DNA of 64,000 nucleotides from an uncultured Candidatus Saccharibacteria bacterium (GTDB taxonomy: Bacteria; Patescibacteriota; Minisyncoccia; UBA6257; 2-01-FULL-56-20). Shown here piece by piece: positions 2,434 through 41,310 of the stretch. The stretch spans positions 114,458-178,457 of the forward strand of contig CAZDFQ010000001.1 of NCBI GenBank assembly GCA_964505005.1. Reading direction: 5' to 3'. The position numbers and the translations under genes are program-made. How positions within the stretch are numbered: the stretch's first letter is position 1; each line of letters begins with the position of its first letter. The notes under the pieces were generated by a model. That model was not told the origin of the DNA. It searched no databases and saw only the letters and a list, made by a program, of their open reading frames with translations.

Positions 2434-2437
2434 TGAA

Positions 2438-3610
2438 TTATTTGAAGGTCGAGACCCGCTGGCCGGCTTTTTTTTCGACTTTAGCAAGGGCTAATTCCCT
2501 GGCCACCGCTCTCGGGCTTCTCCCCTCTTTCAAGCTTTTAGACAAAACCATTCTAGTGCTTTTGACGATTTTTCTTTGAACTAAATCAAACATTTTTTTG
2601 GGATTGTAGCCGCGATACTCGGCGTAAGAAGAAATGACACCACCGGCATTAGCCACGAAATCAGGCACCATCATTATCCCCTTTTTAAAAAGTTCACTTT
2701 CAATGGTTTCGGTCATCGGAATGTTCCCGGCTTCGACAATGATTTTCGCCTTAATTTCGTTCTTGTTCGATTCATTGATGACATCGGTTACTGAAGCCGG
2801 AATCAAAATATCAACCGGGATTTTCCAGAAATCTTGGGATTTAACGGCTGCCTGCGGTAAGGCCTCGCTAAGAGATTCTTTGCCGCTGATAATTTTATCA
2901 ACATTATCTTTGGGAAATCCCTTCTCGTTGAAAATCGCTCCGCTCCTATCTGCCAAAGCAACAACCCTGGCTCCTTTAGCGGTCAGGAACTGATACGCAA
3001 AAGTGCCGACATTGCCAAAACCATGAATGGCGACTGACGATTTATTGATATTAAGACCGAGGAGGGCTGCCGCGGTTTCAGTTGCTTCAGCTACTCCGAA
3101 ACCAGTGCTGCCGAATTCATGAGGGATGCCGCATTTTTCGCCTTTTTTTCCGAACAAGGCCATGCAGTAATTGGCCGGCTTGCCAGTGGCGCTCCGCCAA
3201 TTGCCGGTGGCTTCGACAAACCATTCCATCTCTTCCTCGCCGGTATTGACATCCGGACCGGCAATGTACTGGCGGGGAGTAAAAATCTTTATGGCTCGCG
3301 CAAAACTCTGGATAAATTCTTTTTTAAGTTTATCTGAACCGTCCCTGCCCGCCGTAGCTTCAGCGGAGGCGGGTGGCCAAACTATACCAGCTTTGGCGCC
3401 GCCAAAAGGGATGTCAGCCAAGGCATTTTTCCAGGTCATGGTCCGCGCCAAGCGAAATACTTCCTCGATATTCACATTGTTAGTCATCCGAATCCCGCCT
3501 TTGCCTGGCCCCAAAGCCGTATTATCAATCACCAAAAAACCTTCCATTCCGATTCGGGAATCATAAACTTCCACCAGATATTCTGGGCCGAATTTGTCTT
3601 TAGTTATCAT
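2438..3610 (-). CDS. gdhA: Glutamate dehydrogenase (Glu/Leu/Phe/Val dehydrogenase family).
   Basis: GPGKGGIRM motif; Rossmann motif GFGNVG; length of 390 aa. Confidence 0.8.
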   Translation of the reverse strand: MITKDKFGPEYLVEVYDSRIGMEGFLVIDNTALGPGKGGIRMTNNVNIEEVFRLARTMTWKNALADIPFGGAKAGIVWPPASAEATAGRDGSDKLKKEFIQSFARAIKIFTPRQYIAGPDVNTGEEEMEWFVEATGNWRSATGKPANYCMALFGKKGEKCGIPHEFGSTGFGVAEATETAAALLGLNINKSSVAIHGFGNVGTFAYQFLTAKGARVVALADRSGAIFNEKGFPKDNVDKIISGKESLSEALPQAAVKSQDFWKIPVDILIPASVTDVINESNKNEIKAKIIVEAGNIPMTETIESELFKKGIMMVPDFVANAGGVISSYAEYRGYNPKKMFDLVQRKIVKSTRMVLSKSLKEGRSPRAVARELALAKVEKKAGQRVSTFK

Positions 3611-5049: not shown

Positions 5050-5075
5050 TTCTCTAATTCGCTCGAATTAGAGAA
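5050..5075. repeat. Family B palindrome TTCTCTAATTCG-NNN-CGAATTAGAGAA (copy 1 of 6), immediately 3' of the yfiH-like gene stop.
   Basis: 26-nt near-perfect palindrome. The other copies are at 9121-9147, 12976-13000, 14969-14994, 15290-15315 and 41285-41310. Confidence 0.7.
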
Positions 5076-9120: not shown

Positions 9121-9147
9121 TTCTACGATTCGCTCGAATTAGAGAAG
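9121..9147. repeat. Family B palindrome copy (variant left arm), 3' of the Cys-rich paralog 1 stop.
   Basis: TTCTACGATTCGCTCGAATTAGAGAAG. Confidence 0.6.
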
Positions 9148-9155
9148 ATAATTTC

Positions 9156-10988
9156 CTACGCTACTTCTTGATTGTAGCATTCTTCGCAATACACGATTTC
9201 CGGACGCTCCGGCGCATAAGCGGTCTCGAACTCATTCGGGCAGGGTTCGGCCCCGTGAAAATGTCTCGTAGTATTTTCATAGACGATTTGCGTTTGGCTC
9301 TTGGCGCTTTGCAAGCCTGTGCACATACATTTCCGCTTCTGCAGTTTCATCGGATTCCGGTTTTTCAATCTTTCGGCATAGCGGCAGCTCGGGCACAAGC
9401 GCGGCAGGGGCAAGCCGAATCTTTTGTAGAAATCGAACTCGTTCCTGATGAACCGAAAAGCGCCGCCGCATCTCAAACAGCCGATGGTCTTGGCCAATAA
9501 ACTCTCGTCTGCGTCTTTGATATGGTCAGGTAAATCAACGGCTGGCACAGCAATCCAGAATTCTCTTTTCTTGGGCTCGCGCCAGAAATAGCCCCTGGCT
9601 TCGGCAGCGGCGCGGCTCAACGGATAATAATCCTGGGCCTTGGTCTCGTTATAGGCGAGCGGCGAAAATTCCGGCGGGAAAAACTCCCCATACTTGTAAA
9701 CAATTTCCCTTGTCTCTTGTCCCTTGCCTGCCCCGTTGGAAGCTTGCTTTCCTGCGGGGTTGCTTGTCACTCGTGAAATATAGGGCATTTCATCCATATG
9801 TCTGACAATTTTCTCCCGCAGAGAAAAATATTCATCTTTTGAATACTCTTTATTGAGAATGCAATACTGCTGTTTTTTCAGGCCAACGCAGCCGAAGAGA
9901 TCGGAAGAAGAATGGCAATTTACTGAATACTCCAAGTCGCGGCAGGCCGGCCAGCAATCAAAACAGAATTTTAAATTATGGCAGCTGTCGCCGCAATTCA
10001 CCGACTCATATATTAGTTCAACATTCTCGCCCCAATTGCTGTAATCATAAGAATCCTTAACATATTGGCTAGTATTATGAATGAATTTGGAATTTTCCAC
10101 GCCGCCCACCTCGTAACAATGACGGGCGTTCTTAGACCAATAAACATAGTCGCCGCTGATGTTAACGCAGTCCGGCGTCGAATGGATGTATTTAACCGGA
10201 AAATGCAAACGGAATTCCTCGAATTCTTTTTTTATTTTGAGAAGCGACTGATAAGAGCCAAGGTTAAATTCTTTGAGTTTTTTCTCGTGGTCCTCTTTGG
10301 TGTAGGGCGTGTTGAAAATATGATATTTTTTATGGCTCAAGCTGACGCAGCCAAAGCAATTCTGACAATCAGTACAATCCACTAAAAACCATGAATTCAG
10401 GCAGTCCGCCGCCTCTTCGCTGAAAAATACCTGATAACAATTGTTGACCCGATAGAGCTCATAACACAATTCACTGGAAAGAGTGCAATAAAAATCGAAA
10501 GAGCTGCGCATTCCAACAAACGCCACGCCGTAGGCACAATCTTCGCCATTGCCGGCGTTAAAACAGAGATAACAATTTTTCAAATAAGACGCCTTGTCAG
10601 AATAATCGCTATTTATCAGCCCCCTTATCGAACGCGAGGGCCAAGGCACCGAATAATAAAGTTCTTTGAACTGCTCGAAAAATGGCCGCGAGAAATCGTA
10701 ATCCCGGCCGTAATCCAGGGGATTCCATTTATCCGACCACCAGTAATCGTGCTCGTAAATTTTAAGCGGCGCTTCTTCTGGCCAGCCCGAAAACAACCCC
10801 TTGCCGGTTAAGCTGTCTTTGTTTCGAAAAAGATTATGCTCATTCCAGAAAATCAGCCGGCGCACGGCCCGGCACTCCGGACACCAGGTCGGCGCCGGCA
10901 CGCTCATTCTTTTGTAAAACTGAAAATCATCCGGCTCAATGACGAATTCCGATTTACAGTTTTGACATATTTTGGTTTCTCGAGTCAT
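9156..10988 (-). CDS. Cysteine-rich paralog 1 (610 aa). Zinc-ribbon-like motifs sit at both termini with internal Cys-rich repeats; family and function unknown.
   Basis: N-terminal CQNCKSEF...FYxKxxVPAPTWCPECR. C-terminal ...FxFYxxxxLPLPRLCPSCR...HFHGxxxCPNEFETAYAPERPEIVYCEECYN. Internal repeated NCFGCVxLxxKxYCIxNKxYSKxEY units. It shares all of these with the ORFs at 11183-12958, 13013-14842 and 38711-40489. Confidence 0.7.
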   Translation of the reverse strand: MTRETKICQNCKSEFVIEPDDFQFYKRMSVPAPTWCPECRAVRRLIFWNEHNLFRNKDSLTGKGLFSGWPEEAPLKIYEHDYWWSDKWNPLDYGRDYDFSRPFFEQFKELYYSVPWPSRSIRGLINSDYSDKASYLKNCYLCFNAGNGEDCAYGVAFVGMRSSFDFYCTLSSELCYELYRVNNCYQVFFSEEAADCLNSWFLVDCTDCQNCFGCVSLSHKKYHIFNTPYTKEDHEKKLKEFNLGSYQSLLKIKKEFEEFRLHFPVKYIHSTPDCVNISGDYVYWSKNARHCYEVGGVENSKFIHNTSQYVKDSYDYSNWGENVELIYESVNCGDSCHNLKFCFDCWPACRDLEYSVNCHSSSDLFGCVGLKKQQYCILNKEYSKDEYFSLREKIVRHMDEMPYISRVTSNPAGKQASNGAGKGQETREIVYKYGEFFPPEFSPLAYNETKAQDYYPLSRAAAEARGYFWREPKKREFWIAVPAVDLPDHIKDADESLLAKTIGCLRCGGAFRFIRNEFDFYKRFGLPLPRLCPSCRYAERLKNRNPMKLQKRKCMCTGLQSAKSQTQIVYENTTRHFHGAEPCPNEFETAYAPERPEIVYCEECYNQEVA

Positions 10989-10994
10989 GTTCTA

Positions 10995-11110
10995 CATTTG
11001 GCAGCGAGGAGAAAAGTGAAAATTAACAATTTTCATTTTGGCCGAGCGAACCAAATGAAAAAACGAAGTTTTTCATATTTGGCAGCGAGAAGCAAAATGA
11101 AAAAATGAAG
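10995..11110. repeat. Family A-derived degenerate repeats (two TTTGGCAGCGAG units) upstream of paralog 1.
   Basis: ACATTTGGCAGCGAGGAGAAAAG...TTTTGGCCGAGCGAACCAAATG...ATATTTGGCAGCGAGAAGCAAAATG. Confidence 0.5.
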
Positions 11111-11155
11111 TTTTTTAATTTTTAGCGCTATGTTACGGCCGCTGTTACACAGTTA

Positions 11156-11177
11156 GTGTTATGCTATAGCATAACAC
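11156..11177. repeat. Family C palindrome GTGTTATGC-N4-GCATAACAC (copy 1 of 4), 6 nt 3' of the paralog 2 stop.
   Basis: Other copies at 44425-44452, 48394-48420 and 48594-48614. The loop nucleotides vary while the arms are conserved. Confidence 0.7.
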
Positions 11178-11182
11178 TTTAT

Positions 11183-12958
11183 TCAGATAACTTCTGCGTT
11201 GTAGCATTCCCGGCAATACACGATTTCCGACCGGTCCGGAGCAAAAGCTGCTTCAAATTCATTAGAGCAATGACTGGCGCCGTGAAAATGTTGCGCCTGA
11301 TTTTTATACACGCTGTTTTCGCTTCCTTGTCCCAGGCACTGACATTTTCTTTTCCAGAAGCGCAAAGGATGCGGCTGGTCCTTTAATTTTTCCCGCAAGC
11401 GGCAGAAAAAACACTGGCGCGGCAAAGGGACATTCATCTGCCTGGAGAATGAAAGTTCCTGCGGAATAATGCGAAAGGCGCGGCCGCAGGTCTTACAGCC
11501 GATGGTTTCTTTCAGAATCGACTCGGAAACATCGCGAATGTGGTCAGGAATATCGTCCGCTGGCAAAGTAATCTGATATTCTGTCGGTTCAACATCTTTC
11601 CATTCGTAACCCTGGGCTAAGGCCTCTTCTTTGCTTAAAGGAAAATAAACAAAGGCAAATGATTCGTTGTAAGCCAATGGCGAAAGCTCGAGTGGGAAAA
11701 ATTCGCCGTAGCGATATACCCTCCCTCGCTTATCTTTATAGGGAGCGGCTGACATTTGCTGGATAATCCTCGGCACAAGTTTTTCGTATTCCTCTTTGGA
11801 ATATTGTTTGTTAAGAATGCAATACTGCTTTTCCCGGAGCGAAACGCAGCCGAAAATATTGCTGCAGGCGTCTATACACATCCAGCCATACTGCACCTCG
11901 CGAAGATTGTCATAACAATTGGCCGTAAATTTTATGTTAAAAATATTCAAGCCGCTCATCGCCACTTCGTAAATCAATTCCGCCACGTCTCCCCAGGCAA
12001 AATAATCATAGGCGCTGGCTACCGGCTTTGTTTCAACAAATGAAACATAGCGAGAATCTTCTACGCCTTTCACCTCGAAGCATTTCTGGCAGTTTTTTGA
12101 TTCAAACACCAAAAGCCCGGTTACGTCCTTGGAAAATTCCTGCCAAGATGTTTTCACCGGATATTTCAGCCAGTGTTTTCTGGCTTCTTCTTTAAGCCAA
12201 GTATAAATTTTATACGAGCCGAGGTCCCATTCTTTGAGTTTTTCAAAATATTCCTCCTTAAGATAGGGCTTATTAAAAATGTAGTATTGTTTGTTCCGAA
12301 GATTGGCTGAAGCAAAACAATTCTGGCAGCCCCAGCACTGCCAGAGAAAAGCCGAGTTGTTCGATTCGTTGGTCCAGTTAAGATTCACGCCGCCATAATC
12401 TTTCCAGCAATGAAACAAGTCATAAGAATATTCGCAGGAATCGGCAAAAACAATGTTATAGCAATCTTTTGAACGATTGACAAAATGGCCATAAGCGCAG
12501 TTCTCAATGTAATCCGCTTCAATAAGAAGATAGCAGTTTTTGCCGTGGCCAAAGAGGTTGTTATACGGCGAAGTCGGCGAAAAAACCGGATAATCGGTCC
12601 ACAGCCCAAGGTGCGGTACGCGCCTCATCAGCTCGTCGAGCTGTTCGAAAAACGGTCTGGAAAAATCGTAGTCGCGGCCGTATTCCAGCGGGTCCCAATT
12701 GTCAGACCACCAACAAGAAGTGCAGTAAACCGTGTAGGGCTTATCTGCCGAGTAAACTGAAATGAATTCTTTACCGCACAAATCGCATTTTCTTTTGTAT
12801 AAACTGGCGAAACTGACCTGAGCCATCCGCCGCTGGAGCCGGCACTCCGGACACCAAGTCGGCGCCGGGACTTTTATTTTCTCGTAGAATAAAAAATCCT
12901 CGGGTTCTATTACGAACTCCGATTTGCAATTCTGACAAACCTTCTTTTCTGACTGCAT
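11183..12958 (-). CDS. Cysteine-rich paralog 2 (591 aa), which retains an extra CxxC...CxxC pair near the N-terminus.
   Basis: It has the same N- and C-terminal motifs as paralog 1. A second ribbon, CDLCGKEF...YCTSCWWSDNW, is present where paralog 1 has lost the cysteines. Confidence 0.7.
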   Translation of the reverse strand: MQSEKKVCQNCKSEFVIEPEDFLFYEKIKVPAPTWCPECRLQRRMAQVSFASLYKRKCDLCGKEFISVYSADKPYTVYCTSCWWSDNWDPLEYGRDYDFSRPFFEQLDELMRRVPHLGLWTDYPVFSPTSPYNNLFGHGKNCYLLIEADYIENCAYGHFVNRSKDCYNIVFADSCEYSYDLFHCWKDYGGVNLNWTNESNNSAFLWQCWGCQNCFASANLRNKQYYIFNKPYLKEEYFEKLKEWDLGSYKIYTWLKEEARKHWLKYPVKTSWQEFSKDVTGLLVFESKNCQKCFEVKGVEDSRYVSFVETKPVASAYDYFAWGDVAELIYEVAMSGLNIFNIKFTANCYDNLREVQYGWMCIDACSNIFGCVSLREKQYCILNKQYSKEEYEKLVPRIIQQMSAAPYKDKRGRVYRYGEFFPLELSPLAYNESFAFVYFPLSKEEALAQGYEWKDVEPTEYQITLPADDIPDHIRDVSESILKETIGCKTCGRAFRIIPQELSFSRQMNVPLPRQCFFCRLREKLKDQPHPLRFWKRKCQCLGQGSENSVYKNQAQHFHGASHCSNEFEAAFAPDRSEIVYCRECYNAEVI

Positions 12959-12975
12959 ATTTTTGAAGTCCCTTA

Positions 12976-13000
12976 TTCTACCATTCGCGCGAATTAGAGA
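12976..13000. repeat. Family B palindrome copy (degenerate), 3' of the paralog 3 stop.
   Basis: TTCTACCATTCGCGCGAATTAGAGA. Confidence 0.55.
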
Positions 13001-13012
13001 TAGAGAAAGATA

Positions 13013-14842
13013 TTATACAACTTCAGCATTATAGCAGGCTTCGCAATAAACGATTTCCGGCCTGTCGGGAGCGTAAGATGTTTCAAATTCATTGGGGCAA
13101 TGGTTAGAGCCATGGAAATGCTTAACAGCATTCTGGTAGATTATTTCTTGGTTCTCGCCGGCCCGCGATGAGCTTGTCGAACCTGCGCATTGGCATTTCC
13201 TGTGCCAGAGTTTGAGAGGATTCCTTTGTTTAATTCTCTGATAATGGCGGCAGTTGGGGCAGAAACGGGGCAAAGGCAGATTCATTTTCCGGTAAAACTG
13301 AAGTTCCTGAGGGATAATTTTGAAGGCCGTGGTGCAGCCGGCCGCTTCTTGTTCAAGAGTCAAACCCTTTCGGGCACCGGCGTTGCTGGCGCATTCGATT
13401 ATTTCATCAAGCATGGAATCCTCGACATCCTTTATGCGGTCTGGCAGTTGGTCGGCGGTCATCGTTATTTTGTAATTTCTTTCTTCGGGTTCTTTCCAGC
13501 CGTAGCCCTGTTTCTCTGCTTCTTCTTTAGTCAGAAGAAAATATTCCTGGGCAATGGTTTCGTTATAGGCGAATGGAGAGAGTTCCGGAGGGAAGAATTC
13601 GCCATACTTATAGATTCTGCCTTTTTTATCTATATAAGGCAGAGAATCCATCTGCTCAATGAGGCGAGGCAATAATTTCTCGTATTCTTCTTTAGGGTAT
13701 TGCTTGTTCAGAATGCAGTAGGATTTGTTGCGGAGGCCGATGCAACCGAAAAGATTAGAAGAATTATGACAATTGAAACTATAAAATACATTGTATGAAC
13801 CATAGACAACGCTTGTGCTGATAAGATGATAGCTCTGTCTGTCTCCTGAATCGAAAACTTCGTACATCAATGAACCTAACCCCGCTCCGGGGCCGGCATC
13901 ATATGAATCTTTCAACTGGACGCCTGCCCATTCAAGAAATTTACAATCTTCGGCTCCCTGAGCAATATCAAAACAAAAATGGCAATTTTTAGAATTTTCA
14001 ATATGGTCGCCGGTGACATCTACTGACCTCTGGATAGAGGCATAGCGATGGATGGATTTTTTTAATTCTTCCCGAAAAAGCGCTCTGAATTTTAAAAGGT
14101 TCGAATATCTTCCTAAATCGAATTTCTCGATTTTTTTAAGATATTCCTCCTTTGAATATTGCTGATTAAAAATGCAATAGGATTTATTTCTGAGATTCAC
14201 ACAACCGAAGCAATTTGAACAATTTTTGCAATCGTAAAGAAAAAAGGAATCGGTGCAATTGCCGCAGTCATTACTAAAAAACAACCGATAGGCCTTTTCA
14301 CAAAAGAGGTCATCGTAGCAAAGTTGCGATTCAATGACAGTATAAAGGTCCATTGAGTCCTTAACATAGAGAATACGATTTGAATACATTGTATTCTCGA
14401 TAAAACCCGAGGCAGAAATAAGGTAGCAGTCCTTACTGTCCATAGCCACATTACAATACTCGCTGTTGATGGCATTAGTGTTAGAAAGAGCAATCAGCGG
14501 GAATTTATCCCGAAGCATCCGGAATTGCCGGAAAAATGGCTGAGAAAAATCGTAATCGCAACCGTAATCGAGCGGATTCCACTTATCCGACCACCAATAT
14601 TTTTGGTCGTAAACCGTAAGTTTTTTTTCGGGAGAATAAATAGAAATAATATCATTACCGAAAGCGTCCTTCCGTTTGTAAAGCATCCTTTCGTTCCTGA
14701 AAGCCATTCTCCTTTTAAGTCGGCACTCCGGACACCAAGTCGGCGCCGGAACCTTGATTTTTTCGTAGAACAGAAAATCCGAAGTGTCTATAGCGAATTC
14801 GCTCTGACAATTTTGACAAACTCTTTTTTCAGAAATAGCCAT
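13013..14842 (-). CDS. Cysteine-rich paralog 3. The ATG at 14840-14842 (MAISEKRVCQNC...) is the likely start; the longest ORF extends to 14878 via a TTG.
   Basis: Conserved family motifs are present. The start was chosen by homology with the paralogs, which all begin M-x4-6-CQNC. Confidence 0.65.
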   Translation of the reverse strand: MAISEKRVCQNCQSEFAIDTSDFLFYEKIKVPAPTWCPECRLKRRMAFRNERMLYKRKDAFGNDIISIYSPEKKLTVYDQKYWWSDKWNPLDYGCDYDFSQPFFRQFRMLRDKFPLIALSNTNAINSEYCNVAMDSKDCYLISASGFIENTMYSNRILYVKDSMDLYTVIESQLCYDDLFCEKAYRLFFSNDCGNCTDSFFLYDCKNCSNCFGCVNLRNKSYCIFNQQYSKEEYLKKIEKFDLGRYSNLLKFRALFREELKKSIHRYASIQRSVDVTGDHIENSKNCHFCFDIAQGAEDCKFLEWAGVQLKDSYDAGPGAGLGSLMYEVFDSGDRQSYHLISTSVVYGSYNVFYSFNCHNSSNLFGCIGLRNKSYCILNKQYPKEEYEKLLPRLIEQMDSLPYIDKKGRIYKYGEFFPPELSPFAYNETIAQEYFLLTKEEAEKQGYGWKEPEERNYKITMTADQLPDRIKDVEDSMLDEIIECASNAGARKGLTLEQEAAGCTTAFKIIPQELQFYRKMNLPLPRFCPNCRHYQRIKQRNPLKLWHRKCQCAGSTSSSRAGENQEIIYQNAVKHFHGSNHCPNEFETSYAPDRPEIVYCEACYNAEVV

Positions 14843-14844
14843 AG

Positions 14845-14958
14845 ATTTCAGTACAAATAGAGCGGAGTCCCGCACCAAGCTTTACTTTGGTGCGCGGGTT
14901 CCGGTTCGATAGGGAACTCGATTTTACAATTCTGGCAGGTCCTGCTCTCTGATTCCAT
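14845..14958 (-). pseudogene. Degraded N-terminal fragment of a further Cys-rich paralog (~37 codons).
   Basis: The minus-strand translation is MESESRTCQNCKIEFPIEPEP...AWCGTPLYLY*. It matches the family N-terminus (CQNCKSEFVIEPEDF...PTWCPEC) but carries deletions and a premature stop. Confidence 0.55.
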
Positions 14959-14968
14959 AATTTTATTA

Positions 14969-14994
14969 TTCTCTAATTCGAGCGAATTAGAGAA
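14969..14994. repeat. Family B palindrome copy overlapping the ArsR-family gene stop.
   Basis: TTCTCTAATTCGAGCGAATTAGAGAA, exact. Confidence 0.7.
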
Positions 14995-15256
14995 GAGTCA
15001 AAATATTCTTGGCAGCCACTGGCTTATCGTCTGCCAAACGATAAAACATCTGCAAACTTCTTTGTTCTTTCTCAACAATATCGGCAGCTGCCAGAATCGC
15101 CAGATGTTTGGAGGTCGCTTTGAAAGAAAGATTTATCTCATCAGCGATTTCTCCAACCGGCGCTTCGCGATGTTCTTTGAGATAGCGGAGAATTGCCAAT
15201 CGCCGCCGATTCGCCAAGGCCTTTAATTGTCTCTCCAATTCTTTTTCTTTCATCAA
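14987..15256 (-). CDS. ArsR/SmtB-family HTH transcriptional regulator.
   Basis: LANRRRLAILRYL...VGEIADEINLSFKATSKHLAIL winged-HTH pattern; 89 aa. Confidence 0.7.
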   Translation of the reverse strand: MMKEKELERQLKALANRRRLAILRYLKEHREAPVGEIADEINLSFKATSKHLAILAAADIVEKEQRSLQMFYRLADDKPVAAKNILTLL

Positions 15257-15289: not shown

Positions 15290-15315
15290 TTCTCTAATTC
15301 GAGCGAATTAGAGAA
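15290..15315. repeat. Family B palindrome copy 3' of the pgk stop.
   Basis: TTCTCTAATTCGAGCGAATTAGAGAA, exact. Confidence 0.7.
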
Positions 15316-21251: not shown

Positions 21252-22061
21252 ATGGATACTGCCGAACTGAACTGGAGGAAAATCTGTAATGCGGTCAGGC
21301 AGGGACAAAGAGAGATAGCTAACCCTCGGGGGCTGGAATCAGTGATTGATTGCCTGCAGCAGCTGATTCCGAAGTGCGGCCCGGCTTCCCAAACTGCCCA
21401 GATGTGTCAAAGGATTGGCAAGATAATGAGCAACGAAAACTATTCGGTTTTGGCACCCTGCTGCCCGGATTACGCTCACTGTGACAGCCGGTATATCTTT
21501 GGCGGGTTGAGCGGGAACGTTTCCCTTCTCGCCCAGAAACATATCTCTTTCCTCAAAGAGATAAGGCATCTCCTGCCGGGGGCAAATTTCGTTTTGCTCT
21601 ACGCTGACCAAGAATCGGAGGATGAAGCGCTCTTGCAATCCACAAAAACAACTAGAGAAGAATTCCGGGGGTTGGTCCGAAAAAGCGTTGAACAAACACG
21701 AACGGAAGTTGCGGAATTCGGCTGGCAGGTGAGAATGATGACGGAAGAAATCCCGGACATTACCTTAGAAGAAAAGGAGGTTTCCGACTGGATAAGAAAC
21801 AACCTGAAGTTCAAAATAAGGATAAATACGGAAACAATCTACCGAGCCGAGATGTACTGGAAAATCGCGCTATCAGCTGGAAAGCGGTTTTCGGCAGAAG
21901 AGATGACCGAACGAACTATCAGGACAGCGGCTCAATATGTAGCCGTGGGACGTTTCGCGTCCTCTAAAAAGTCCTTGGTCTCTAACCATACAACGGTAAA
22001 TCTCTCCTGGTACCTCCAAACCGAAGCGGCAGTGCTCCACAACCCTGTCGACGTCTATTAG
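21252..22061 (+). CDS. Hypothetical protein (269 aa), preceded by a structured leader.
   Basis: Strong RBS AAGGAGG 6 nt upstream; no recognisable motifs; the composition differs from its neighbours. Confidence 0.5.
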   Translation: MDTAELNWRKICNAVRQGQREIANPRGLESVIDCLQQLIPKCGPASQTAQMCQRIGKIMSNENYSVLAPCCPDYAHCDSRYIFGGLSGNVSLLAQKHISFLKEIRHLLPGANFVLLYADQESEDEALLQSTKTTREEFRGLVRKSVEQTRTEVAEFGWQVRMMTEEIPDITLEEKEVSDWIRNNLKFKIRINTETIYRAEMYWKIALSAGKRFSAEEMTERTIRTAAQYVAVGRFASSKKSLVSNHTTVNLSWYLQTEAAVLHNPVDVY

Positions 22062-22103
22062 CTTGCCGGGAGCTGAACCAAATCAGCTCCCGGCCGCCCA
22101 ACT

Positions 22104-22700
22104 ATGATTAAATTCATTAAAACTCTTGAATACGAAACGCGACCCGAAAATACGGATGTTTTCGATTATTTATGTGATGTTGCCTCGCAAAAAATCGATC
22201 CTCCCACAAAATCAATGAGGCTTTTCGACCTCGAAAGCGACATAGTGATTTACTCTTCCGCCAGACGCGTGGCCGAAACGATAAAAATAAACAATAAAAC
22301 AAGGTACATCAAGACTTCCCTATTAAAGGAGATTCCCTTTGACTTGCGCTCCTTGTGCGCGAAAACAGAGTGGGAACAAGGCGGAAGCGCCGCGGTTCGA
22401 AAGGGCTTTATTAAGGCCTTTATTGACGATACCCTCCTATTGCCAAGGGAGAGAATTTTTAATGAAATCAAAAAAATCTTAGATTTCTGCGCCAAGCAGT
22501 CGACTTTTCAAGAAATCGCCGTCATCTCTCATTCTTTCCGCCTTAAAATATTTGAGGCCTTTATTTATACCGAAGGCGACATAGAAAAAAATTCCTGTCT
22601 TATAAAATGTTTTATCCAACCAGAACAAAAAACTTATGATTTTGGGAAGGGATTTTCGGTGTCTAAAAAGCGAATTTCCTCGCTAGCTTTACGCTTGTAA
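22104..22700 (+). CDS. Hypothetical protein (198 aa), AT-rich. It may be a degenerate histidine-phosphatase-like protein (VISHSFRLK); I cannot assign it.
   Basis: ORF with an AT-rich composition that continues into the R-M island. Confidence 0.4.
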   Translation: MIKFIKTLEYETRPENTDVFDYLCDVASQKIDPPTKSMRLFDLESDIVIYSSARRVAETIKINNKTRYIKTSLLKEIPFDLRSLCAKTEWEQGGSAAVRKGFIKAFIDDTLLLPRERIFNEIKKILDFCAKQSTFQEIAVISHSFRLKIFEAFIYTEGDIEKNSCLIKCFIQPEQKTYDFGKGFSVSKKRISSLALRL

Positions 22701-22732
22701 TTTTTATCTCCCGCAATCGTCTAATTTTTGTT

Positions 22733-22762
22733 GGCCAAGTCATACCAACATTCTTAAGTTTA
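22733..22762. repeat. Direct repeat (copy 1) flanking the small HTH regulator gene: ACCAACATTCTTAAGTTTATAGGTATG.
   Basis: The second copy at 23088-23112 is in the same orientation. The ACCAACATTCT start resembles the 20600 and 38678 palindromes. Confidence 0.6.
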
Positions 22763-22774
22763 TAGGTATGTTTA

Positions 22775-23050
22775 TTATGCCCGCCGGAAGAATTTTAAAA
22801 AGCGTACGAATGTTTGTCCGTATGGAGAAAGCGAATGTTCTACAAATTTACCGCGATATTTTTTATTGATAAGTCCCGCCTGAGAGAGCCGCCGGGTATG
22901 TTCGCCAATCGTTTTCTCGTTTGCTCCTATTTCTTTTACTATATCTTCCAACGTGATTCTGTCTCGATTAGCAATAAGAAGTAATATTTCAATACGATAA
23001 TGATTGGCAACGCCCTTAAGGTGGCGCTCCATCTGTTTTGCGGTCTTCAT
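22775..23050 (-). CDS. Small winged-HTH regulator (ArsR-like, 91 aa) flanked by ~30-nt direct repeats. It is a candidate controller of the adjacent R-M genes.
   Basis: HYRIEILLLIANRDRITLEDIVKEIGANEKTIGEHTRRLSQAGLI HTH pattern. Direct repeats ACCAACATTCTYAAGTTTATARGTATG lie at 22733-22762 and 23088-23112. Confidence 0.6.
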   Translation of the reverse strand: MKTAKQMERHLKGVANHYRIEILLLIANRDRITLEDIVKEIGANEKTIGEHTRRLSQAGLINKKYRGKFVEHSLSPYGQTFVRFLKFFRRA

Positions 23051-23087
23051 TTTACCCGTATCTTTACGATGTATTTAATCATACACA

Positions 23088-23112
23088 ACATACCAACATT
23101 CTCAAGTTTATA
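23088..23112. repeat. Direct repeat (copy 2) upstream of the HTH regulator gene: ACCAACATTCTCAAGTTTATAAGTATG.
   Basis: See copy 1. Confidence 0.6.
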
Positions 23113-23411
23113 AGTATGTTATTTGTTGGTTTAGTTAGAATTGTTTAGTTTAAACTATCGAAATTATTCCTTGAGCCCCTTGATTCTTTCTTCGATTACC
23201 TTCCGGAAATAAGCCCGCAGCTCGAGTGGAGATCTCTGCCGTCTCGCGGACAACACCCCTCTCATCCCCTAAGTCATTTATAAATCACCTCTTCTATTTC
23301 CTGACGCTGTATTTTGGGCTACCTTCTGTTATGCGTCGCTATCGAAACTATTTTAAAAATATCATCTCCGGCTTGAGGTGTCTCATCAATAAGTTCCATA
23401 TACTTAAGCCG

Positions 23412-24350: not shown

Positions 24351-24370
24351 AATTTATATGCTTTCATCAA

Positions 24371-25054: not shown

Positions 25055-25152
25055 CCCTATTTCCGCCTTTTTGGTTATCCACAGGTGGCATTGACTTTTG
25101 ACAAGCGCTTGTCATACTATAATTAATCACTACGAAAAAGACCCTTATGCGG

Positions 25153-25686: not shown

Positions 25687-25705
25687 AAACCGAATTTTAA
25701 ATTCC

Positions 25706-28078
25706 TTATTCCCTTAACCGCTTGTAAATTTCCTCCTCGATTTCTTGGCGGTCCCTGCCGTATTTGGCGCGGGACTGGTTTTTCAGCCGGTCGGCCAGCT
25801 GGCGGTCGCCGCGCTCGAGCGCTAGGGTTTCGATGTTGAACGGCTTGGTGGTTTGGCCATTGACGAGAATTTTCACATAGGCATTGAAATTGTCGATGTT
25901 CAATAAATCGTTCTGGCTGAAAACCGGCTCGAACTGTTTGATCAGAAACTCGGCATCCTGGGCCCCGACCCGGAAAACAATCTGCGAGCCGACATTGCCG
26001 AAAACCGCGTCCCGGATTTTTTCCGTCAGCTGGGCGATGAACTGATGCGCCATCGTCAAGTTCAGGCGATACTTGCGCGCCTCGGAAAGAATCGTGGAAA
26101 TGGAATCAGTGGTGAAATTCTGGAACTCGTCAATGTAGAGATTGAAGTCGCGGCGCTTTTCGACTTCGGGAATGTCCACGCGCGAGAGCGCGGCCATCAA
26201 GAGTTTGCCGCTGAAAATCATCCCCAGCAGGCCGGCATTGATGTCGCCGATCCGGCCCTTGGAAAGATTGACTAAAAGAATCTTGCCTTCATCAATCACA
26301 TAACGGAAATTGAAAGCGGATTTGGGCTGGCCGATGACTGGCCGCATATAATCGTTGGCGATGAAATTGTTGAATTTGGAAGTGATGTAGGGCGTCATAT
26401 TGGCAAGCGAGGCCTCGCCGCCGGCTTTAACCGCTTCTTTCTCCCAGAAATCAATGACCACCGGGTTTTGGATTCTTTCCAGTTTGCGAAGACGATATTC
26501 GCTGTCCGTGAAAATCCGCGGCACTTCAATAAGCGTTGCCGGCTCGTTAGGCATATCTTCCATCAACAGCAGCAAAGCATTCCGCATATACTGTTCGAAC
26601 ATCGGCCCCATGGTTTCCGGCGGAAAAAGCTTGTTGAAAATCCCCTGCATTTCGTTGACGATGAAAGTTTTTTCTTCGGGTCGGTTGAAAGAATATTCGA
26701 GCATATTCAAGCCGAGCGGCCGGAAAATGTCCGCGGTGTCGAAATAAATCACATCTTCGAGGCGATTTGACGGAATATAGCCGAGAGCGTTCTCGGCCAA
26801 ATCGCCGTGCGGGTCAATGATGGCCACGCCTTTACCTTTGGTAATGTCGTCAATAATCATATTGCCAAGCAAGGTGGATTTGCCGGTGCCGGTCTGGCCA
26901 ATGATGTAAATATGCCGGCGGCGGTCATCGTCGGTTATCCGGACCTCGCGGTATTCCCCGCGGAAGCGGCTGCGGCCGATTAAAACACCGGCGGCCGGCA
27001 GATTGGACGGCGGCTCGGATTCTTTGGCTTTGAGCCATTTGATGCGCGGAGTTTCCGTGGAAGAAATCGGCAGATGATAAAGGCTCGCCAGTTCTTCGGA
27101 ATTCAAAATCATGGTTTCCCGGGAACTGAAATTCCGGAAACTCAATTCATAAGCCAGTCGTTGAACATTCCTTGATTTGACAACTTTGAAGTCGTTTCGC
27201 ATCGGGCTGGCGAACTGGCTGAAGCTAGCAATCAGGCCGTCGAGAATGTCGTTCGCCTGGAACGGGGTGCCGCCCGAAGCGGCCAGCCGGACATTGACCT
27301 CGAAAAGCGGCTTAGAAATTTTGGCGGTCAGGGCCTTAACTGCTTCCTCGTCAACGACTTTTTCTTCTTTCTTTTTTTCTTCTTTTTCGGGCGCGAGGGC
27401 TTCTTTCAGTTCCTCGGGCTGGAAAGGAAATTCCTGGCCGAGCACGCGCTTCAAGGGCTTGCCAACTTTCAGGCTTCTGATGTAGGCCTCGATTTTCTTT
27501 TTCTTGTCTTTGTCAGCCGGCTTGACGACGAGCTGGAGCATTGCGCCTTCGCCGACTTCGTTTATTTTGGAAAAAGAACCGGCAATCGCCGCAAAAGTGT
27601 CCAAGCCGATTTCCTGGTAAGTCCTGATGGGCAAAGCGTAACTTTCCGACTGCAAAAGATAAGCAGCCGCCGCGGCTCCCTGAGAATTAAAAATGTTGTA
27701 ATCGTCGGCCGCCCGCTCCACCGAAGCCGCCCGCCACAACCCCTGAATCTGTTTAACAGCCACTTCGCTCAAAACCCGCGGCACCGCCAGATAAAAATGA
27801 ATTTCCTCGCCGATGTGCGGCACCGCCACTTCCAGAACAAAGGGCTTTTTGAGTGCCGCCAAATTGCTCAATAATTGTTCGGTTAAATTTATCTCCTGCT
27901 TGAAATCTTTTTGGGCTGAACCAGCAGCCGGCGCTTCTTTGGGGATTTTTATGAGGAATAAAACCAGGCCAAGGGATTCCCTGAGCCGGCGCTTTTGCCA
28001 GAAACGAAAAATCAAATAAACCGCGGCGGCCAAGGCGCCTATGAATAAAACAACGGCTAAAAATATCAGAAAGGGCAT
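25706..28078 (-). CDS. Membrane-anchored P-loop ATPase of the FtsK/HerA/TraG-VirD4 superfamily (T4SS coupling-protein-like).
   Basis: N-terminal TM helix, Walker A GQTGTGKST, Walker B-like LYIDEFQNF, 790 aa. Confidence 0.45.
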   Translation of the reverse strand: MPFLIFLAVVLFIGALAAAVYLIFRFWQKRRLRESLGLVLFLIKIPKEAPAAGSAQKDFKQEINLTEQLLSNLAALKKPFVLEVAVPHIGEEIHFYLAVPRVLSEVAVKQIQGLWRAASVERAADDYNIFNSQGAAAAAYLLQSESYALPIRTYQEIGLDTFAAIAGSFSKINEVGEGAMLQLVVKPADKDKKKKIEAYIRSLKVGKPLKRVLGQEFPFQPEELKEALAPEKEEKKKEEKVVDEEAVKALTAKISKPLFEVNVRLAASGGTPFQANDILDGLIASFSQFASPMRNDFKVVKSRNVQRLAYELSFRNFSSRETMILNSEELASLYHLPISSTETPRIKWLKAKESEPPSNLPAAGVLIGRSRFRGEYREVRITDDDRRRHIYIIGQTGTGKSTLLGNMIIDDITKGKGVAIIDPHGDLAENALGYIPSNRLEDVIYFDTADIFRPLGLNMLEYSFNRPEEKTFIVNEMQGIFNKLFPPETMGPMFEQYMRNALLLLMEDMPNEPATLIEVPRIFTDSEYRLRKLERIQNPVVIDFWEKEAVKAGGEASLANMTPYITSKFNNFIANDYMRPVIGQPKSAFNFRYVIDEGKILLVNLSKGRIGDINAGLLGMIFSGKLLMAALSRVDIPEVEKRRDFNLYIDEFQNFTTDSISTILSEARKYRLNLTMAHQFIAQLTEKIRDAVFGNVGSQIVFRVGAQDAEFLIKQFEPVFSQNDLLNIDNFNAYVKILVNGQTTKPFNIETLALERGDRQLADRLKNQSRAKYGRDRQEIEEEIYKRLRE

Positions 28079-41284: not shown

Positions 41285-41310
41285 TTCTCTAATTCGAGCG
41301 AATTAGAGAA
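41285..41310. repeat. Family B palindrome copy 3' of the galT-like gene, next to a tandem octamer repeat.
   Basis: TTCTCTAATTCGAGCGAATTAGAGAA, exact. Confidence 0.7.

What the first reader, a model, noticed from the sequence alone, without database searches (positions are those of the whole stretch)
9156..14958. Tandem array of three ~600-aa cysteine-rich paralogs plus a degraded fourth copy: an uncharacterised protein family with zinc-ribbon-like motifs at both termini
Three same-strand genes (9156-10988, 11183-12958, 13013-14842) and a 37-codon remnant (14845-14958) share several motif blocks. The N-terminus is M-x5-CQNCKSEF-x-IEPxDFxFYxKxxVPAPTWCPECR. A central block is YGRDYDFSRPFFEQ. Internal units NCFGCVxLRxKxYCIxNKxYSKEEY occur twice per protein. 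The C-terminus repeats the N-terminal theme (FxFYxxxxLPLPRLCPxCR...RKCQC...HFHGxxHCPNEFETAYAPxRPEIVYCxECYN). Paralog 2 retains an extra CxxC...CxxC pair that paralog 1 has lost, so the copies are diverging. I recognise no enzymatic motif and no signal peptide. The N- and C-terminal ribbons look like duplicated modules of one ancestral Zn-binding unit. Tandem amplification plus a decaying copy suggests rapid turnover, as seen in conflict or defence or host-interaction systems. The function is entirely open.
Basis: seen in the sequence. Interest (0 to 1): 0.85.

Follow-up and report, generated by a model that had tools for sequence, protein, structure and literature searches.

The report
Patescibacterial zinc-finger β-solenoid paralog array
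The window carries four old, diverged copies of a very large, completely uncharacterised protein family of ultra-small (Patescibacteria/CPR) bacteria, built from zinc-finger modules flanking two cysteine-lined β-solenoids; elsewhere its gene arrays sit right behind an "orphan" type-IV-secretion coupling-type ATPase, which makes these proteins the first concrete candidates for what that ATPase works on.

Summary
In detail: there are three tandem minus-strand genes (610, 591 and 609 aa; 44-47% identical) plus a 36-codon 5' remnant. A fourth full copy at 38711-40489 was missed.

The family has about 2,200 clusters at 50% identity, nearly all from Patescibacteria. It forms same-strand arrays of up to 11-12 copies.

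The paralogs are ancient: dS is saturated, and 95% of copies have a closer relative in another genome. "Rapid turnover / defence" is therefore not supported.

Arrays start directly downstream of a highly conserved VirD4/TraG-like ATPase, subtype B (24 of 81 family loci; 5 of 5 in the reverse test). They show no such link to subtype A (0 of 80).

A divergent branch is single-copy, lacks the Zn ligands, and is recurrently fused to a GNAT acetyltransferase.

Best reading, at moderate confidence: these are cytoplasmic target-recognition scaffolds that act as clients of the coupling-type ATPase.

The parts
9156..10988 (-). Paralog 1 (610 aa). Full family architecture. Zn site 2 is lost (DTEY). It carries a ~20-aa low-complexity insertion after solenoid 2.
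   Evidence: Pfam zf_Tbcl 29 bits (cutoff 24)
11183..12958 (-). Paralog 2 (591 aa). All four terminal metal sites are intact. This is the reference copy used for the model and for residue numbering.
12704..12952 (-). Paralog 2 residues 3-85: N-terminal double treble-clef module. Site 1 is C8, C11, C36, C39; site 2 is C58, C61, C79, C82. The module is basic (pI 8.4).
12605..12703 (-). Paralog 2 residues 86-118: family-wide conserved linker, WWSDxWDPxxYGRDYDFSRPFFEQ plus a helix.
12230..12547 (-). Paralog 2 residues 138-243: β-solenoid 1 plus its cap. The coil is 12 residues with Cys or small residues at register positions 1, 4, 7 and 10. The cap begins CxxCxxC(F[GA][CS]) and continues NLRNKxYxIFNKPYxKEEY.
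11768..12103 (-). Paralog 2 residues 286-397: β-solenoid 2 plus its cap (FGCVSLRxKQYCILNKQYSKEEY). This is the high-confidence part of the model and the region matched by β-solenoid structures.
11513..11758 (-). Paralog 2 residues 401-482: highly conserved extended segment with the motifs YGEFFPxExSPxAYNET, GYxW and PDHI.
11195..11512 (-). Paralog 2 residues 483-588: C-terminal double Zn module, homologous to the N-terminal one. Site 3 is C488, C491, C516, C519. Site 4 is C539, (C541, H557, H559), C564, C582, C585. The module is basic (pI 8.9).
13013..14842 (-). Paralog 3 (609 aa from the ATG at 14842). Zn site 2 is lost. It has an ~16-aa insertion inside site 3.
14848..14958 (-). Remnant: a 36-codon ORF. 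The first 20 codons are a family N-terminus holding only the first CxxC knuckle; the rest is unrelated sequence containing an imperfect GC-rich inverted repeat.
   Evidence: comparable remnants or truncations at L003:15242-15418 and in L166
38711..40489 (-). Paralog 4 (592 aa), a fourth full-length family member outside the reported interval. Sites 1-4 are intact.
25706..28078 (-). VirD4/TraG-like (FtsK-HerA superfamily) membrane ATPase, subtype A (790 aa, N-terminal TM helix). It lies between paralog 4 and the array, about 10.7 kb from each. In other genomes this subtype, and especially subtype B, abuts family arrays.
14987..15256 (-). 89-aa ArsR-family wHTH regulator directly upstream of the remnant and array. 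It has no Cys and only one His, so no recognisable metal site. Flanked by two perfect palindromes.
14973..14990 (.). Palindrome CTAATTCG-NN-CGAATTAG, 15 bp upstream of the remnant start. Further copies lie at 15294-15311 (upstream of the regulator), 12980-12997 (upstream of paralog 2, 3 mismatches), 9125-9142, 41289-41306 and 5054-5071.
   Evidence: 6 found, 0.56 expected; co-occurs with ArsR homologues in L057 and L058

Best explanation
What it is (shown).
- The four genes are members of a very large, uncharacterised protein family, essentially specific to Patescibacteria.
- The proteins are soluble and cytoplasmic, about 550-610 aa.
- Their internally duplicated architecture is A-B-B'-A'. 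In order: a basic double treble-clef metal module; a conserved aromatic linker; two narrow β-solenoids, each closed by the same cap motif; a conserved extended segment; then a second basic double metal module.
- The solenoid coils are the most variable parts. The termini, caps and linker motifs are the most conserved.

How it most likely works (inferred).
- Each paralog is a non-catalytic target-recognition scaffold.
- The variable solenoid faces bind a paralog-specific macromolecular ligand.
- The conserved terminal modules and linker motifs dock the protein to a common partner.
- In Parcubacteria-type genomes that partner is the highly conserved, membrane-associated VirD4/TraG-like 'orphan coupling protein' ATPase (subtype B, with its DUF8128 and p173 partners), behind which the main arrays are encoded.
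- On this reading the paralogs are the ATPase's clients, either adaptors that bring substrates to it or the translocated cargo itself. The array is a repertoire of specificities.
- The window's arrays are satellite arrays of the same repertoire. Here they are probably controlled by a small ArsR-type repressor through the intergenic palindrome.
- In a divergent, single-copy branch that lacks the Zn ligands, the same scaffold is fused to a GNAT acetyltransferase. There the partner activity is supplied in cis.
For: Architecture.
- Pfam finds only the terminal zf_Tbcl and zf_Tbcl_2 domains.
- The metal-ligand columns are invariant in 63 of 63 sequences for sites 1 and 3.
- The AF2 model has pLDDT 88.1 and pTM 0.87.
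- Both duplications score above 99% probability.
- Cys occur only at register positions 1, 4, 7 and 10 of a 12-residue coil in 200 sequences.
- The proteins have no TM segment or signal peptide, and both termini are basic.
- The variable solenoid and conserved ends are shown by the entropy profile.

Repertoire.
- Arrays reach 11-12 same-strand copies, often with 4-bp overlaps.
- The paralogs are old and mutually distinct.
- Array content differs between genomes whose flanking SecD is 83% and ATPase B 94% identical.

Partner.
- An ATPase lies in 33 of 81 family-centred loci from different species, on the same strand in 32 of those 33 and within 1 kb of a family gene in 28.
- The canonical order is σ70r4/HARE-HTH > DUF8128 > p173 > ATPase B > (CutA1) > family array > ATPase A, with interleaved variants.
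- In the reverse test, 5 of 5 ATPase-B homologues picked blind on long contigs have family genes starting within 2 kb downstream. This holds even where the rest of the cluster is absent, as in L169.
- ATPase B is 78-100% identical across species, against about 45-60% for family proteins. That is the pattern expected for a constrained machine with fast-evolving clients.
- Literature: Patescibacteria carry about 2 VirD4-type T4CP homologues per genome, almost never next to virB4, and their function is stated to be open (PMC12102498).

Fusion.
- GNAT-family fusions occur in 9 clusters at 55-62% identity. This supports a binding scaffold that recruits an activity.
Against: - The link to ATPase subtype A is one-directional. 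None of 80 ATPase-A-centred metagenome loci (about 1 Mb in total) contains a family gene. Subtype A sits among housekeeping genes with its own small partner.
- The reverse test for subtype B has only five loci. They come from one broad lineage (78-94% identical ATPases), so conserved synteny by descent is not excluded.
- In the window itself the array is not adjacent to any ATPase (10.7 kb away). Many family loci (48 of 81) show none within the 10-kb flank on either side.
- No physical interaction, expression, localisation or metal content has been measured.
- Tightly folded multi-Zn proteins are not typical T4SS cargo.
- The divergent branch is single-copy, has no ATPase nearby, and has lost its Zn ligands. 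The ancestral function therefore cannot depend on the ATPase or on the fingers.
- The metal identity (Zn or Fe) and the formation of the sites are inferred from sequence and from a model whose coordinates I could not inspect.
Confidence: 0.38

Rival explanations
1. The proteins are ATPase-independent macromolecule-binding proteins, for example RNA-, DNA- or protein-binding factors or regulators. The basic terminal finger modules would grip nucleic acid or a partner, and the solenoid would act as a spacer or platform. Adjacency to the ATPase would be inherited synteny without functional coupling.
For: - Both terminal modules are basic (pI 8.4 and 8.9) with invariant Arg after the second knuckle (R40, R43, R44).
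- The window arrays and 48 of 81 loci lack a nearby ATPase.
- ATPase A shows no reciprocal link.
- One GNAT-fused member overlaps the stop of der and follows rnc, miaB-like and mnmA. A single-copy member lies near miaA.
Against: - The RNA-biogenesis neighbourhood is not reproduced in the second GNAT-fused locus.
- The fingers are dispensable in a whole branch.
- Whole proteins are mildly acidic (median pI 6.4).
- ATPase-B-to-array adjacency holds in 5 of 5 blind picks and survives loss of the rest of the cluster.
- No similarity to any known nucleic-acid-binding family was found.
Confidence: 0.25
2. The proteins are a metal (Zn/Fe) buffering, storage or chaperone family. Each protein would carry 3-4 terminal Cys4 sites plus a Cys-lined solenoid whose last turn (C208, C211, C214, C217) could hold a further ion. 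Many paralogs together would form a significant metal pool in a very small cell.
For: - Cys content is 5-6%, with Cys exclusively at inward-facing coil positions and a CxxCxxCxxC ring conserved at 74-98%.
- Metal-related neighbours recur. CutA1 sits directly upstream of arrays (11 of 81 loci at a median of 99 bp, and in 4 of 5 ATPase-B loci). Nramp appears in L169 and VIT1 in L174.
- An ArsR-family regulator lies upstream in the window.
Against: - The ArsR-type protein lacks the Cys/His ligand sets of metal-sensing members (sequence).
- CutA1's role in metal tolerance is itself doubtful (my own knowledge).
- Inward positions are freely replaced by Ser, Ala and Gly, so most are packing residues rather than ligands.
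- 600-aa proteins with conserved non-Cys motifs and old, differentiated paralogs are an expensive and unusual way to store metal.
- A whole branch lacks the terminal ligands.
Confidence: 0.1
3. One reading: a fast-evolving conflict, defence or host-interaction system maintained by tandem amplification and decay.
For: - The family forms multi-copy arrays. There is a 5' remnant in the window, another in L003, and an IS-truncated copy in L166.
- Array content differs between related genomes.
- The family's distribution is centred on epibiotic and predatory lineages: Parcubacteria, Gracilibacteria, Peregrinibacteria and Bdellovibrionales-like bacteria.
Against: - There is no PADLOC or PHROG match.
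- The family is absent from IMG/VR contigs, phage records and plasmids.
- No recent duplicates exist: maximum same-locus identity is 66.6%, and 95% of copies have closer relatives in other genomes. dS is saturated.
- There is no effector-type enzymatic domain and no mobile-element flanks in the window.
Confidence: 0.08
4. The proteins form a structural or cytoskeletal polymer. The β-solenoids would stack end to end, in the manner of bactofilin or curli, to build a cytoplasmic filament or scaffold from several paralogous subunits.
For: - Two solenoids per chain, and many co-encoded and apparently co-translated paralogs (4-bp overlaps).
Against: - Both solenoid ends are capped by conserved cap motifs and helices, and the termini are occupied by finger modules. 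This blocks end-to-end stacking.
- There is no Pfam bactofilin or curlin match.
- Copy number and composition vary widely between genomes. That fits poorly with fixed subunits of a single structure.
Confidence: 0.06
5. The protein is a cryptic enzyme, for example a β-helix acyl- or acetyltransferase-like protein whose active site lies in the conserved GEFFP...YNET / WWSD...YGRDYDF motifs.
For: - Foldseek's top, non-significant hits are LβH acetyl/acyltransferases such as GlmU, LpxA and LpxD.
- The family-wide invariant polar residues D86, D318, N383, N431 and E501 are compatible with a catalytic or ligand site.
- Fusion to an acetyl-CoA-dependent GNAT.
Against: - No hexapeptide-repeat Pfam hit was found, and the coil length of 12-14 residues does not match the 18 of LβH.
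- Foldseek E values are all 0.009 or higher.
- No known catalytic motif was recognised.
- Ten or more differentiated paralogs per tiny genome would be unusual for an enzyme.
Confidence: 0.05

Closest known systems
Pfam zf_Tbcl (PF13451) and zf_Tbcl_2 (PF23477) / NCBIfam TIGR04272 'CxxC-x17-CxxC domain' (probable treble-clef zinc fingers)
   Same: The terminal modules match these models (residues 7-46, about 488-541 and 562-588). They show the CxxC...C-P-x-C-R pattern, with the second ligand pair at the start of a helix.
   Different: - These are small domain models of unknown function and cover under 25% of the protein.
- Only paralog 1 reaches the curated cutoff (29 bits against 24). zf_Tbcl_2 and TIGR04272 stay below their cutoffs.
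- The roughly 400-residue core has no model at all.
Short-coil β-solenoids: ryegrass ice-binding protein (PDB 3ULT), beetle antifreeze TmAFP (1EZG), spruce budworm AFP (1M8N), curli CsgA (8C50)
   Same: - Solenoid 1 has a 12-residue coil with a cysteine-filled interior, the same coil length as TmAFP.
- A neighbour-locus family member has a faint Pfam AFP hit.
   Different: - Sequence identity is 4-11%.
- Those proteins are secreted, and TmAFP is disulfide-bonded. This family is cytoplasmic and has no TxT-type ice-binding face that I could identify.
- Cys fall at register positions 1, 4, 7 and 10, rather than 2 and 8.
- The solenoids are embedded between finger modules.
Type IV coupling protein (VirD4/TraG/TrwB) with its clients, e.g. 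Xanthomonas X-Tfe effectors with a conserved VirD4-recognition domain; also T7SS EssC ATPase with adjacent variable substrate arrays (analogy from my own knowledge, not tested)
   Same: A membrane ATPase of the FtsK-HerA/T4CP type is encoded next to a variable set of paralogous proteins. Those proteins share conserved terminal modules and differ in the middle.
   Different: - No T4SS channel genes lie in these clusters. Patescibacterial T4CP homologues are generally far from virB4 (PMC12102498).
- The proteins have no toxin or enzyme domain, no immunity genes and no recognisable secretion signal.
- Nothing is known about translocation.
LIM-type tandem zinc-finger modules (protein-protein interaction adaptors)
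   Same: Two consecutive Cys4 treble-clef-like fingers form one module. There are weak sequence hits to LIM proteins (PDB 1CTL at E 0.07; Pfam LIM in 3 of 63 members, E 0.01 or higher).
   Different: - The fingers are separated by 18 residues here, against 2 in LIM.
- The hits are far below significance.
Left-handed β-helix (hexapeptide-repeat) acyltransferases and γ-carbonic anhydrases (GlmU, LpxA/LpxD, Cam)
   Different: No hexapeptide repeat, a different coil length, no trimer-interface active-site residues, and Foldseek E values of 0.009 or higher.

Membership tests
zf_Tbcl (PF13451) treble-clef zinc finger | HMM score at or above the gathering threshold (24 bits), with the CxxC-x24-CPxC ligand pattern | tested here: met
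   Paralog 1 scores 29 bits, with two stretches. Paralogs 2 and 3 score 19.1 and 16.6 bits, below the cutoff, but have identical ligand spacing. 28 of 63 members hit the model. Ligand columns are invariant in 63 of 63 sequences.
zf_Tbcl_2 (PF23477) / TIGR04272 CxxC-x17-CxxC domain | HMM score at or above the curated cutoff (27 and 36 bits respectively) | tested here: not met
   The best scores are 19.8 and 18.5 bits, at residues 562-588 of paralog 2. This is a resemblance only.
Known anti-phage defence systems (PADLOC-DB) | A match of any component to a defence-system HMM | tested here: not met
   No families at E up to 1 for the three paralogs.
Phage- or plasmid-borne gene family | Presence on viral contigs, phage genomes or plasmids | tested here: not met
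   No confirmed relative in IMG/VR. tblastn found no match in 50,697 phage records or 72,556 plasmid records. PHROG hits are insignificant.
Hexapeptide-repeat (LβH) acyltransferases | Hexapeptide repeat motif (Pfam Hexapep) and an 18-residue coil | tested here: not met
   No Hexapep hit in 63 members. The coil period is 12 residues in solenoid 1. Foldseek E values are 0.009 or higher.
Bactofilin / curlin self-assembling β-solenoids | Pfam bactofilin or curlin-repeat match, and open solenoid ends | tested here: not met
   [not shown]
Antifreeze / ice-binding β-solenoids | A secreted protein with a regular Thr-rich ice-binding face | tested here: not met
   [not shown]
Clients (substrates or adaptors) of a type IV coupling protein | Conserved genetic linkage to a T4CP-type ATPase | tested here: inconclusive
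   Subtype B: present in 24 of 81 family loci, and 5 of 5 in the reverse test. Subtype A: 0 of 80 in the reverse test. The window array is 10.7 kb from subtype A, and no subtype B lies in the window.
Clients (substrates or adaptors) of a type IV coupling protein | Physical binding to the T4CP and/or T4CP-dependent translocation; presence of a T4SS channel in the same genome | not testable with these tools
   This requires multimer modelling, pull-down assays, translocation reporters, and whole-genome access for the source MAG.
LIM domain | Pfam LIM match and two contiguous fingers with a 2-residue spacer | tested here: not met
   [not shown]
Metal-sensing ArsR/SmtB repressor (the upstream regulator) | An α3 Cys motif or an α5 Asp/His ligand set | tested here: not met
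   The HTH_5/HTH_20 match is clear. However, the 89-aa sequence has no Cys and a single His. It is an ArsR-family wHTH protein without a recognisable metal site.

The most novel reading that the evidence does not exclude
The family is the missing client repertoire of the 'orphan' VirD4-type coupling ATPases of Patescibacteria. It would be a new class of modular, metal-stabilised, cysteine-lined β-solenoid proteins. Their paralog-specific surfaces would recognise host or prey molecules, and they would be handed to, or exported by, a coupling-protein machine that works without a canonical neighbouring T4SS. This would define a new host-interaction system of ultra-small epibiotic bacteria. The same scaffold would have been reused as a targeting domain for a GNAT acetyltransferase in Bdellovibrionales-like predators. 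The solenoid interior might additionally hold an internal Cys4 metal site.
Probability: 0.2. Interest if true: 0.85.

Novelty: categorically new. Interest (0 to 1): 0.7.

Why it matters
Genome investment.
- Patescibacteria have genomes of about 0.6-1 Mb, yet they devote a striking share to this one family.
- At least 7.2 kb of the 64-kb window is family sequence. One genome has 11-12 copies, about 20 kb, on a 621-kb contig, which is roughly 3%.
- That level of investment in streamlined genomes points to something central to their lifestyle. Even so, the family has no name, no Pfam model for its core, no solved relative, and no paper that I could find.

An open question made testable.
- The link to the highly conserved coupling-protein-type ATPase gives the first testable hypothesis for an openly acknowledged gap: what the roughly two T4CP homologues per patescibacterial genome do, given that they are not encoded with the T4SS (PMC12102498).

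Structural interest.
- The fold combination is unusual: duplicated treble-clef modules flanking two 12-14-residue-coil solenoids, with cysteines at every inward position.
- It could interest protein designers and metalloprotein chemists.

Evolutionary handles.
- The Zn-free, GNAT-fused branch offers a natural experiment on what the scaffold recognises.

Tried and rejected
- Defence and phage libraries (PADLOC, PHROGs) gave nothing significant.
- PDB searches by sequence gave only noise. This covers the single sequence and the profiles of the full alignment and of the N-terminal module.
- Foldseek against the PDB gave no hit at E 0.001 or lower.
- The AFDB50 fold library was unavailable.
- dN/dS between the paralogs cannot be computed, because dS is saturated.
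- The promoter/terminator scan of the array gave counts close to those of the shuffles, so it is uninformative.
- Identity-based orthogroup clustering was too crude to define subfamilies. It showed only that array order and composition are not fixed.
- ATPase A as an obligate partner is rejected (0 of 80 in the reverse test).
- An RNA or ribosome-biogenesis context, suggested by L171, was not reproduced in L175.
- The ArsR regulator as a general family partner is rejected. It occurs in only 4 other loci and has no metal-ligand residues.
- Literature searches for the family, its Pfam identifiers, DUF8128, and CPR-expanded Cys-rich or β-helix families found no prior description.

Full report
OBSERVATION. 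The three genes and the short ORF exist as described, all on the minus strand: 9156-10988 (610 aa), 11183-12958 (591 aa), 13013-14842 (609 aa) and 14848-14958 (36 codons plus stop). The three long proteins align end to end at 44-47% identity, with tblastn E from 1e-155 to 1e-174. The short ORF matches the family N-terminus for its first 20 residues only, which covers the first CxxC knuckle (E 0.001-0.018 in the window). It sits in line at the head of the array. All four are on one 222-kb public contig, as singleton clusters without a name, and the database gene boundaries equal mine.

ARCHITECTURE: INTERNAL DUPLICATION. Profile-profile comparison proves two internal duplications. The N-terminal module (residues 3-85) matches the C-terminal module (483-588) at probability 99.4%, E 1e-21. 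Solenoid 1 plus cap (138-243) matches solenoid 2 plus cap (286-397) at probability 99.6%, E 1e-23. The negative control scored 2%. The plan is therefore A-B-B'-A'.

ARCHITECTURE: METAL SITES AND CYSTEINE REGISTER. In the window's branch the ligand columns are as follows. Site 1 (C8, C11, C36, C39) and site 3 (C488, C491, C516, C519) are invariant in 63 of 63 sequences. Site 2 (C58, C61, C79, C82) is present in about 80%; paralogs 2 and 4 keep it, and paralogs 1 and 3 have lost it. Site 4 is C539, (C541, H557, H559), C564, C582, C585. The predicted secondary structure, a knuckle hairpin followed by ligands at the start of a helix, is that of a treble clef. The remaining cysteines are not finger ligands. 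In 200 family sequences, Cys in solenoid 1 occur only at register positions 1, 4, 7 and 10 of a 12-residue coil (means 38, 52, 25 and 24%; 0% at the other eight positions). Small residues fill those positions at 54-78%, against 6-21% elsewhere. The last turn is a CxxCxxCxxC ring (C208 74%, C211 90%, C214 98%, C217 80%). The proteins are soluble (max KD19 of 1.0 or less), slightly acidic overall, with basic terminal modules.

FAMILY SIZE AND DISTRIBUTION. A word-indexed search saturated at more than 7,600 hits, all named 'hypothetical' and all from Patescibacteria. An exhaustive profile search of 1.84 billion representatives at 50% identity found 2,241 clusters at E 1e-30 or lower (3,804 at 1e-10; 5,250 at 1e-3). 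Nearly all are 545-610 aa and match end to end. They come from Jorgensen-, Giovannoni-, Sungii-, Lipton-, Staskawicz-, Nomura-, Moranii- and Magasanikbacteria and from Minisyncoccia/Paceibacterota. The family is absent from IMG/VR, phage genomes and plasmids.

ARRAYS AND THEIR AGE. Same-strand arrays are the rule. There are 258 family ORFs in 86 sources, with up to 11-12 copies in 21.7 kb of a 621-kb contig, often with 4-bp overlaps. The copies are old. Between the window paralogs dS is saturated (NG86 undefined, third-position identity about 0.5) and dN is 0.49-0.58. Across 164 genes with a same-locus paralog, the best same-locus identity has a median of 44.6% and a maximum of 66.6%. The best match in another genome has a median of 57.6% and is higher in 95% of cases. 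Array order and composition are not fixed. They also change faster than the flanks: between L003 and L166, SecD is 83% and ATPase B 94% identical, but the best family match is only 36-50%. Remnants and an IS-truncated copy occur elsewhere. This is slow birth-and-death of an ancient multigene family, not rapid amplification.

GENOMIC ASSOCIATION: FROM THE FAMILY SIDE. The window neighbours are housekeeping genes: PGK, SDR, RNase H, DHH, HAD and Sua5, and ddl, CysRS, PBP2, MreC and MreB. Clustering the neighbours of 81 family-centred loci singled out a VirD4/TraG-like P-loop ATPase. Its Pfam hits (DUF87, T4SS-DNA_transf, TrwB_AAD_bind, TraG-D_C) are all above their cutoffs, and it has an N-terminal TM helix. 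It is present in 33 of 81 loci, on the same strand in 32 of those 33, and within 1 kb of a family gene in 28. Two subtypes exist. The canonical order is σ70r4/HARE-HTH > DUF8128 > p173 > ATPase B > (CutA1) > array > ATPase A, with interleaved variants. The window has subtype A at 25706-28078, about 10.7 kb from the array and a similar distance from paralog 4. A low-GC R-M island and housekeeping genes lie in between.

GENOMIC ASSOCIATION: REVERSE TESTS. The two subtypes behave differently when tested from the ATPase side. None of 80 metagenome loci centred on subtype A (about 1 Mb in total) contains a family gene. There subtype A sits with map, ndk, adk, secY and dnaX and a small partner, which the window also has at 28539-28940. 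For subtype B, five homologues on long contigs were picked without regard to the family. All five have family genes starting within 2 kb downstream. This includes L169, which lacks the rest of the cluster, and L166, where an IS element has split the first copy. ATPase B is 78-100% identical across the best 120 hits. [quoted passage not shown] It does not mention these neighbours (PMC12102498).

A DIVERGENT BRANCH. One strong profile hit (P0260, E 2e-161) is 731 aa. It is an N-terminal GNAT acetyltransferase fused to a complete family body. It is single-copy in a non-CPR bacterium whose locus has FliI/FliH, POR and a hybrid kinase. The fusion recurs in 9 clusters at 55-62% identity, one of them labelled Bdellovibrionales, and there is one inositol-monophosphatase-family fusion. 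Its neighbourhood is not conserved. Unfused members of about 550 aa occur in Gracilibacteria and Peregrinibacteria. In the GNAT-fused, Gracilibacteria and related sequences all four terminal sites are degenerate (CSCE / CSDY / CTCE). In contrast, the non-Cys motifs (WWSDxWD..YGRDFDFxRPFFEQ, GEFFP..YNET, GYxW) and the cap cysteines remain conserved. Metal-binding fingers therefore characterise the window's branch but are not essential to the family.

INTERPRETATION. Shown: the fold plan, the duplications, the cysteine register, the size, age and distribution of the family, and the subtype-specific synteny. Inferred: the proteins are non-catalytic recognition scaffolds. Their variable solenoid faces bind paralog-specific targets, and their conserved ends dock to a partner, which is the coupling-type ATPase B in Parcubacteria or a fused GNAT in the divergent branch. 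I put this at about 0.38.

RIVAL READINGS. The main rival, at 0.25, is an ATPase-independent nucleic-acid- or protein-binding role, with the synteny being inherited. A metal-buffering role (0.10) draws on the Cys-lined solenoid and the CutA1, Nramp and VIT1 neighbours. It is weakened by free replacement of the inward Cys and by the Zn-free branch. The defence or rapid-turnover reading (0.08), a polymer (0.06) and a cryptic enzyme (0.05) are less likely, for the reasons given in the rival entries.

COMPARISON AND NOVELTY. Membership is met only for the small zf_Tbcl domain. Every other family considered failed a defining test or could not be tested: defence systems, LβH enzymes, bactofilin/curlin, antifreeze proteins, LIM, and mobile-element genes. 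The T4CP-client analogy is a statement about how the system may work, not about membership. The sequences are already public as 'hypothetical proteins'. Even so, the family, its architecture and its association with the orphan coupling ATPase appear undescribed in the literature I could search.

LIMITS.
- No coordinates were available to check site geometry.
- The subtype-B reverse test is small and phylogenetically narrow.
- Organism labels of many MAGs are generic.
- No expression or biochemical data exist.

Noticed in passing
window 14973-14990, 15294-15311, 41289-41306, 5054-5071 (perfect); 12980-12997, 9125-9142 (3 mismatches): The intergenic palindrome CTAATTCG-NN-CGAATTAG occurs 6 times against 0.56 expected. 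Two perfect copies flank the 89-aa ArsR-type gene at 14987-15256. Among the 170 loci fetched by then, the exact motif occurs only in L057 and L058. Both carry an ArsR homologue, and in L058 the motif again flanks the gene. It is probably this regulator's operator, which would place paralogs 2 and 3 and the gene upstream of paralog 4 in its regulon.
   Followed up: partly
window 23412-25054 (within the low-GC stretch ~22000-26000): A type II restriction-modification pair, an MjaI-family endonuclease (24371-25054) and an N6/N4 DNA methylase (23412-24350), sits in a region of 39% GC against about 45% elsewhere. It lies directly downstream of the VirD4-like ATPase and looks like a horizontally acquired island.
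   Followed up: no
window 59242-62967 (+): The ribonucleotide reductase large subunit (1241 aa) is interrupted by an intein that carries a LAGLIDADG homing-endonuclease domain. It also has a C-terminal TSCPD domain.
   Followed up: no
window 88-2487 (-): A single 799-aa ORF fuses glucose-6-phosphate dehydrogenase (G6PD_N and G6PD_C) to the NAD-binding and C-terminal parts of 6-phosphogluconate dehydrogenase. This is an unusual fusion of two oxidative pentose-phosphate enzymes.
   Followed up: no
window 25706-28078 and 28539-28940 (-); loci L086-L165: The fused 790-aa VirD4-like ATPase (subtype A) has a conserved small partner of about 130-145 aa, Ala/Pro-rich in the middle. In 35 of 80 metagenome loci the partner lies a median of 14 bp upstream. 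The window's 133-aa ORF is this partner, although here a PNPOx-like gene lies between the two. Subtype A otherwise sits among map, ndk, adk, secY and dnaX.
   Followed up: partly
L003:7783-9237 and homologues (P0270-P0389): ATPase subtype B is extraordinarily conserved. The best 120 hits are 78-100% identical, whereas neighbouring SecD, SecF and σ/HARE-HTH are 50-65% identical between the same genomes. It is always preceded by a separate DUF8128 protein and a ~175-aa membrane protein (p173). Subtype A looks like a fusion of a DUF8128-like N-terminal part with the ATPase.
   Followed up: partly
L166:12010-13073 and 13103-14428: An IS element (rve / HTH_Tnp_1 transposase genes) is inserted between CutA1 and the array. 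The first family copy there lacks its N-terminal ~136 residues. A second IS (DDE_Tnp_IS1595) lies between secF and the σ/HARE-HTH gene.
   Followed up: partly
window 40924-41262 (-); L058:3193-3537, L035:6595-6930, L017:8261-8608, L085:80-445: A 112-aa predicted multi-pass membrane protein lies directly upstream of paralog 4. It recurs at 47-58% identity near family genes in four other loci.
   Followed up: partly
P0410 (832 aa; no locus fetched): One family member carries an inositol-monophosphatase-family (PF00459) domain. This is a second kind of enzyme fusion besides GNAT.
   Followed up: no
window 22778-23050 (-): A second, distant ArsR-like small ORF (30% identity to the one at 14987-15256, E 3e-4) lies next to the R-M island.
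   Followed up: no
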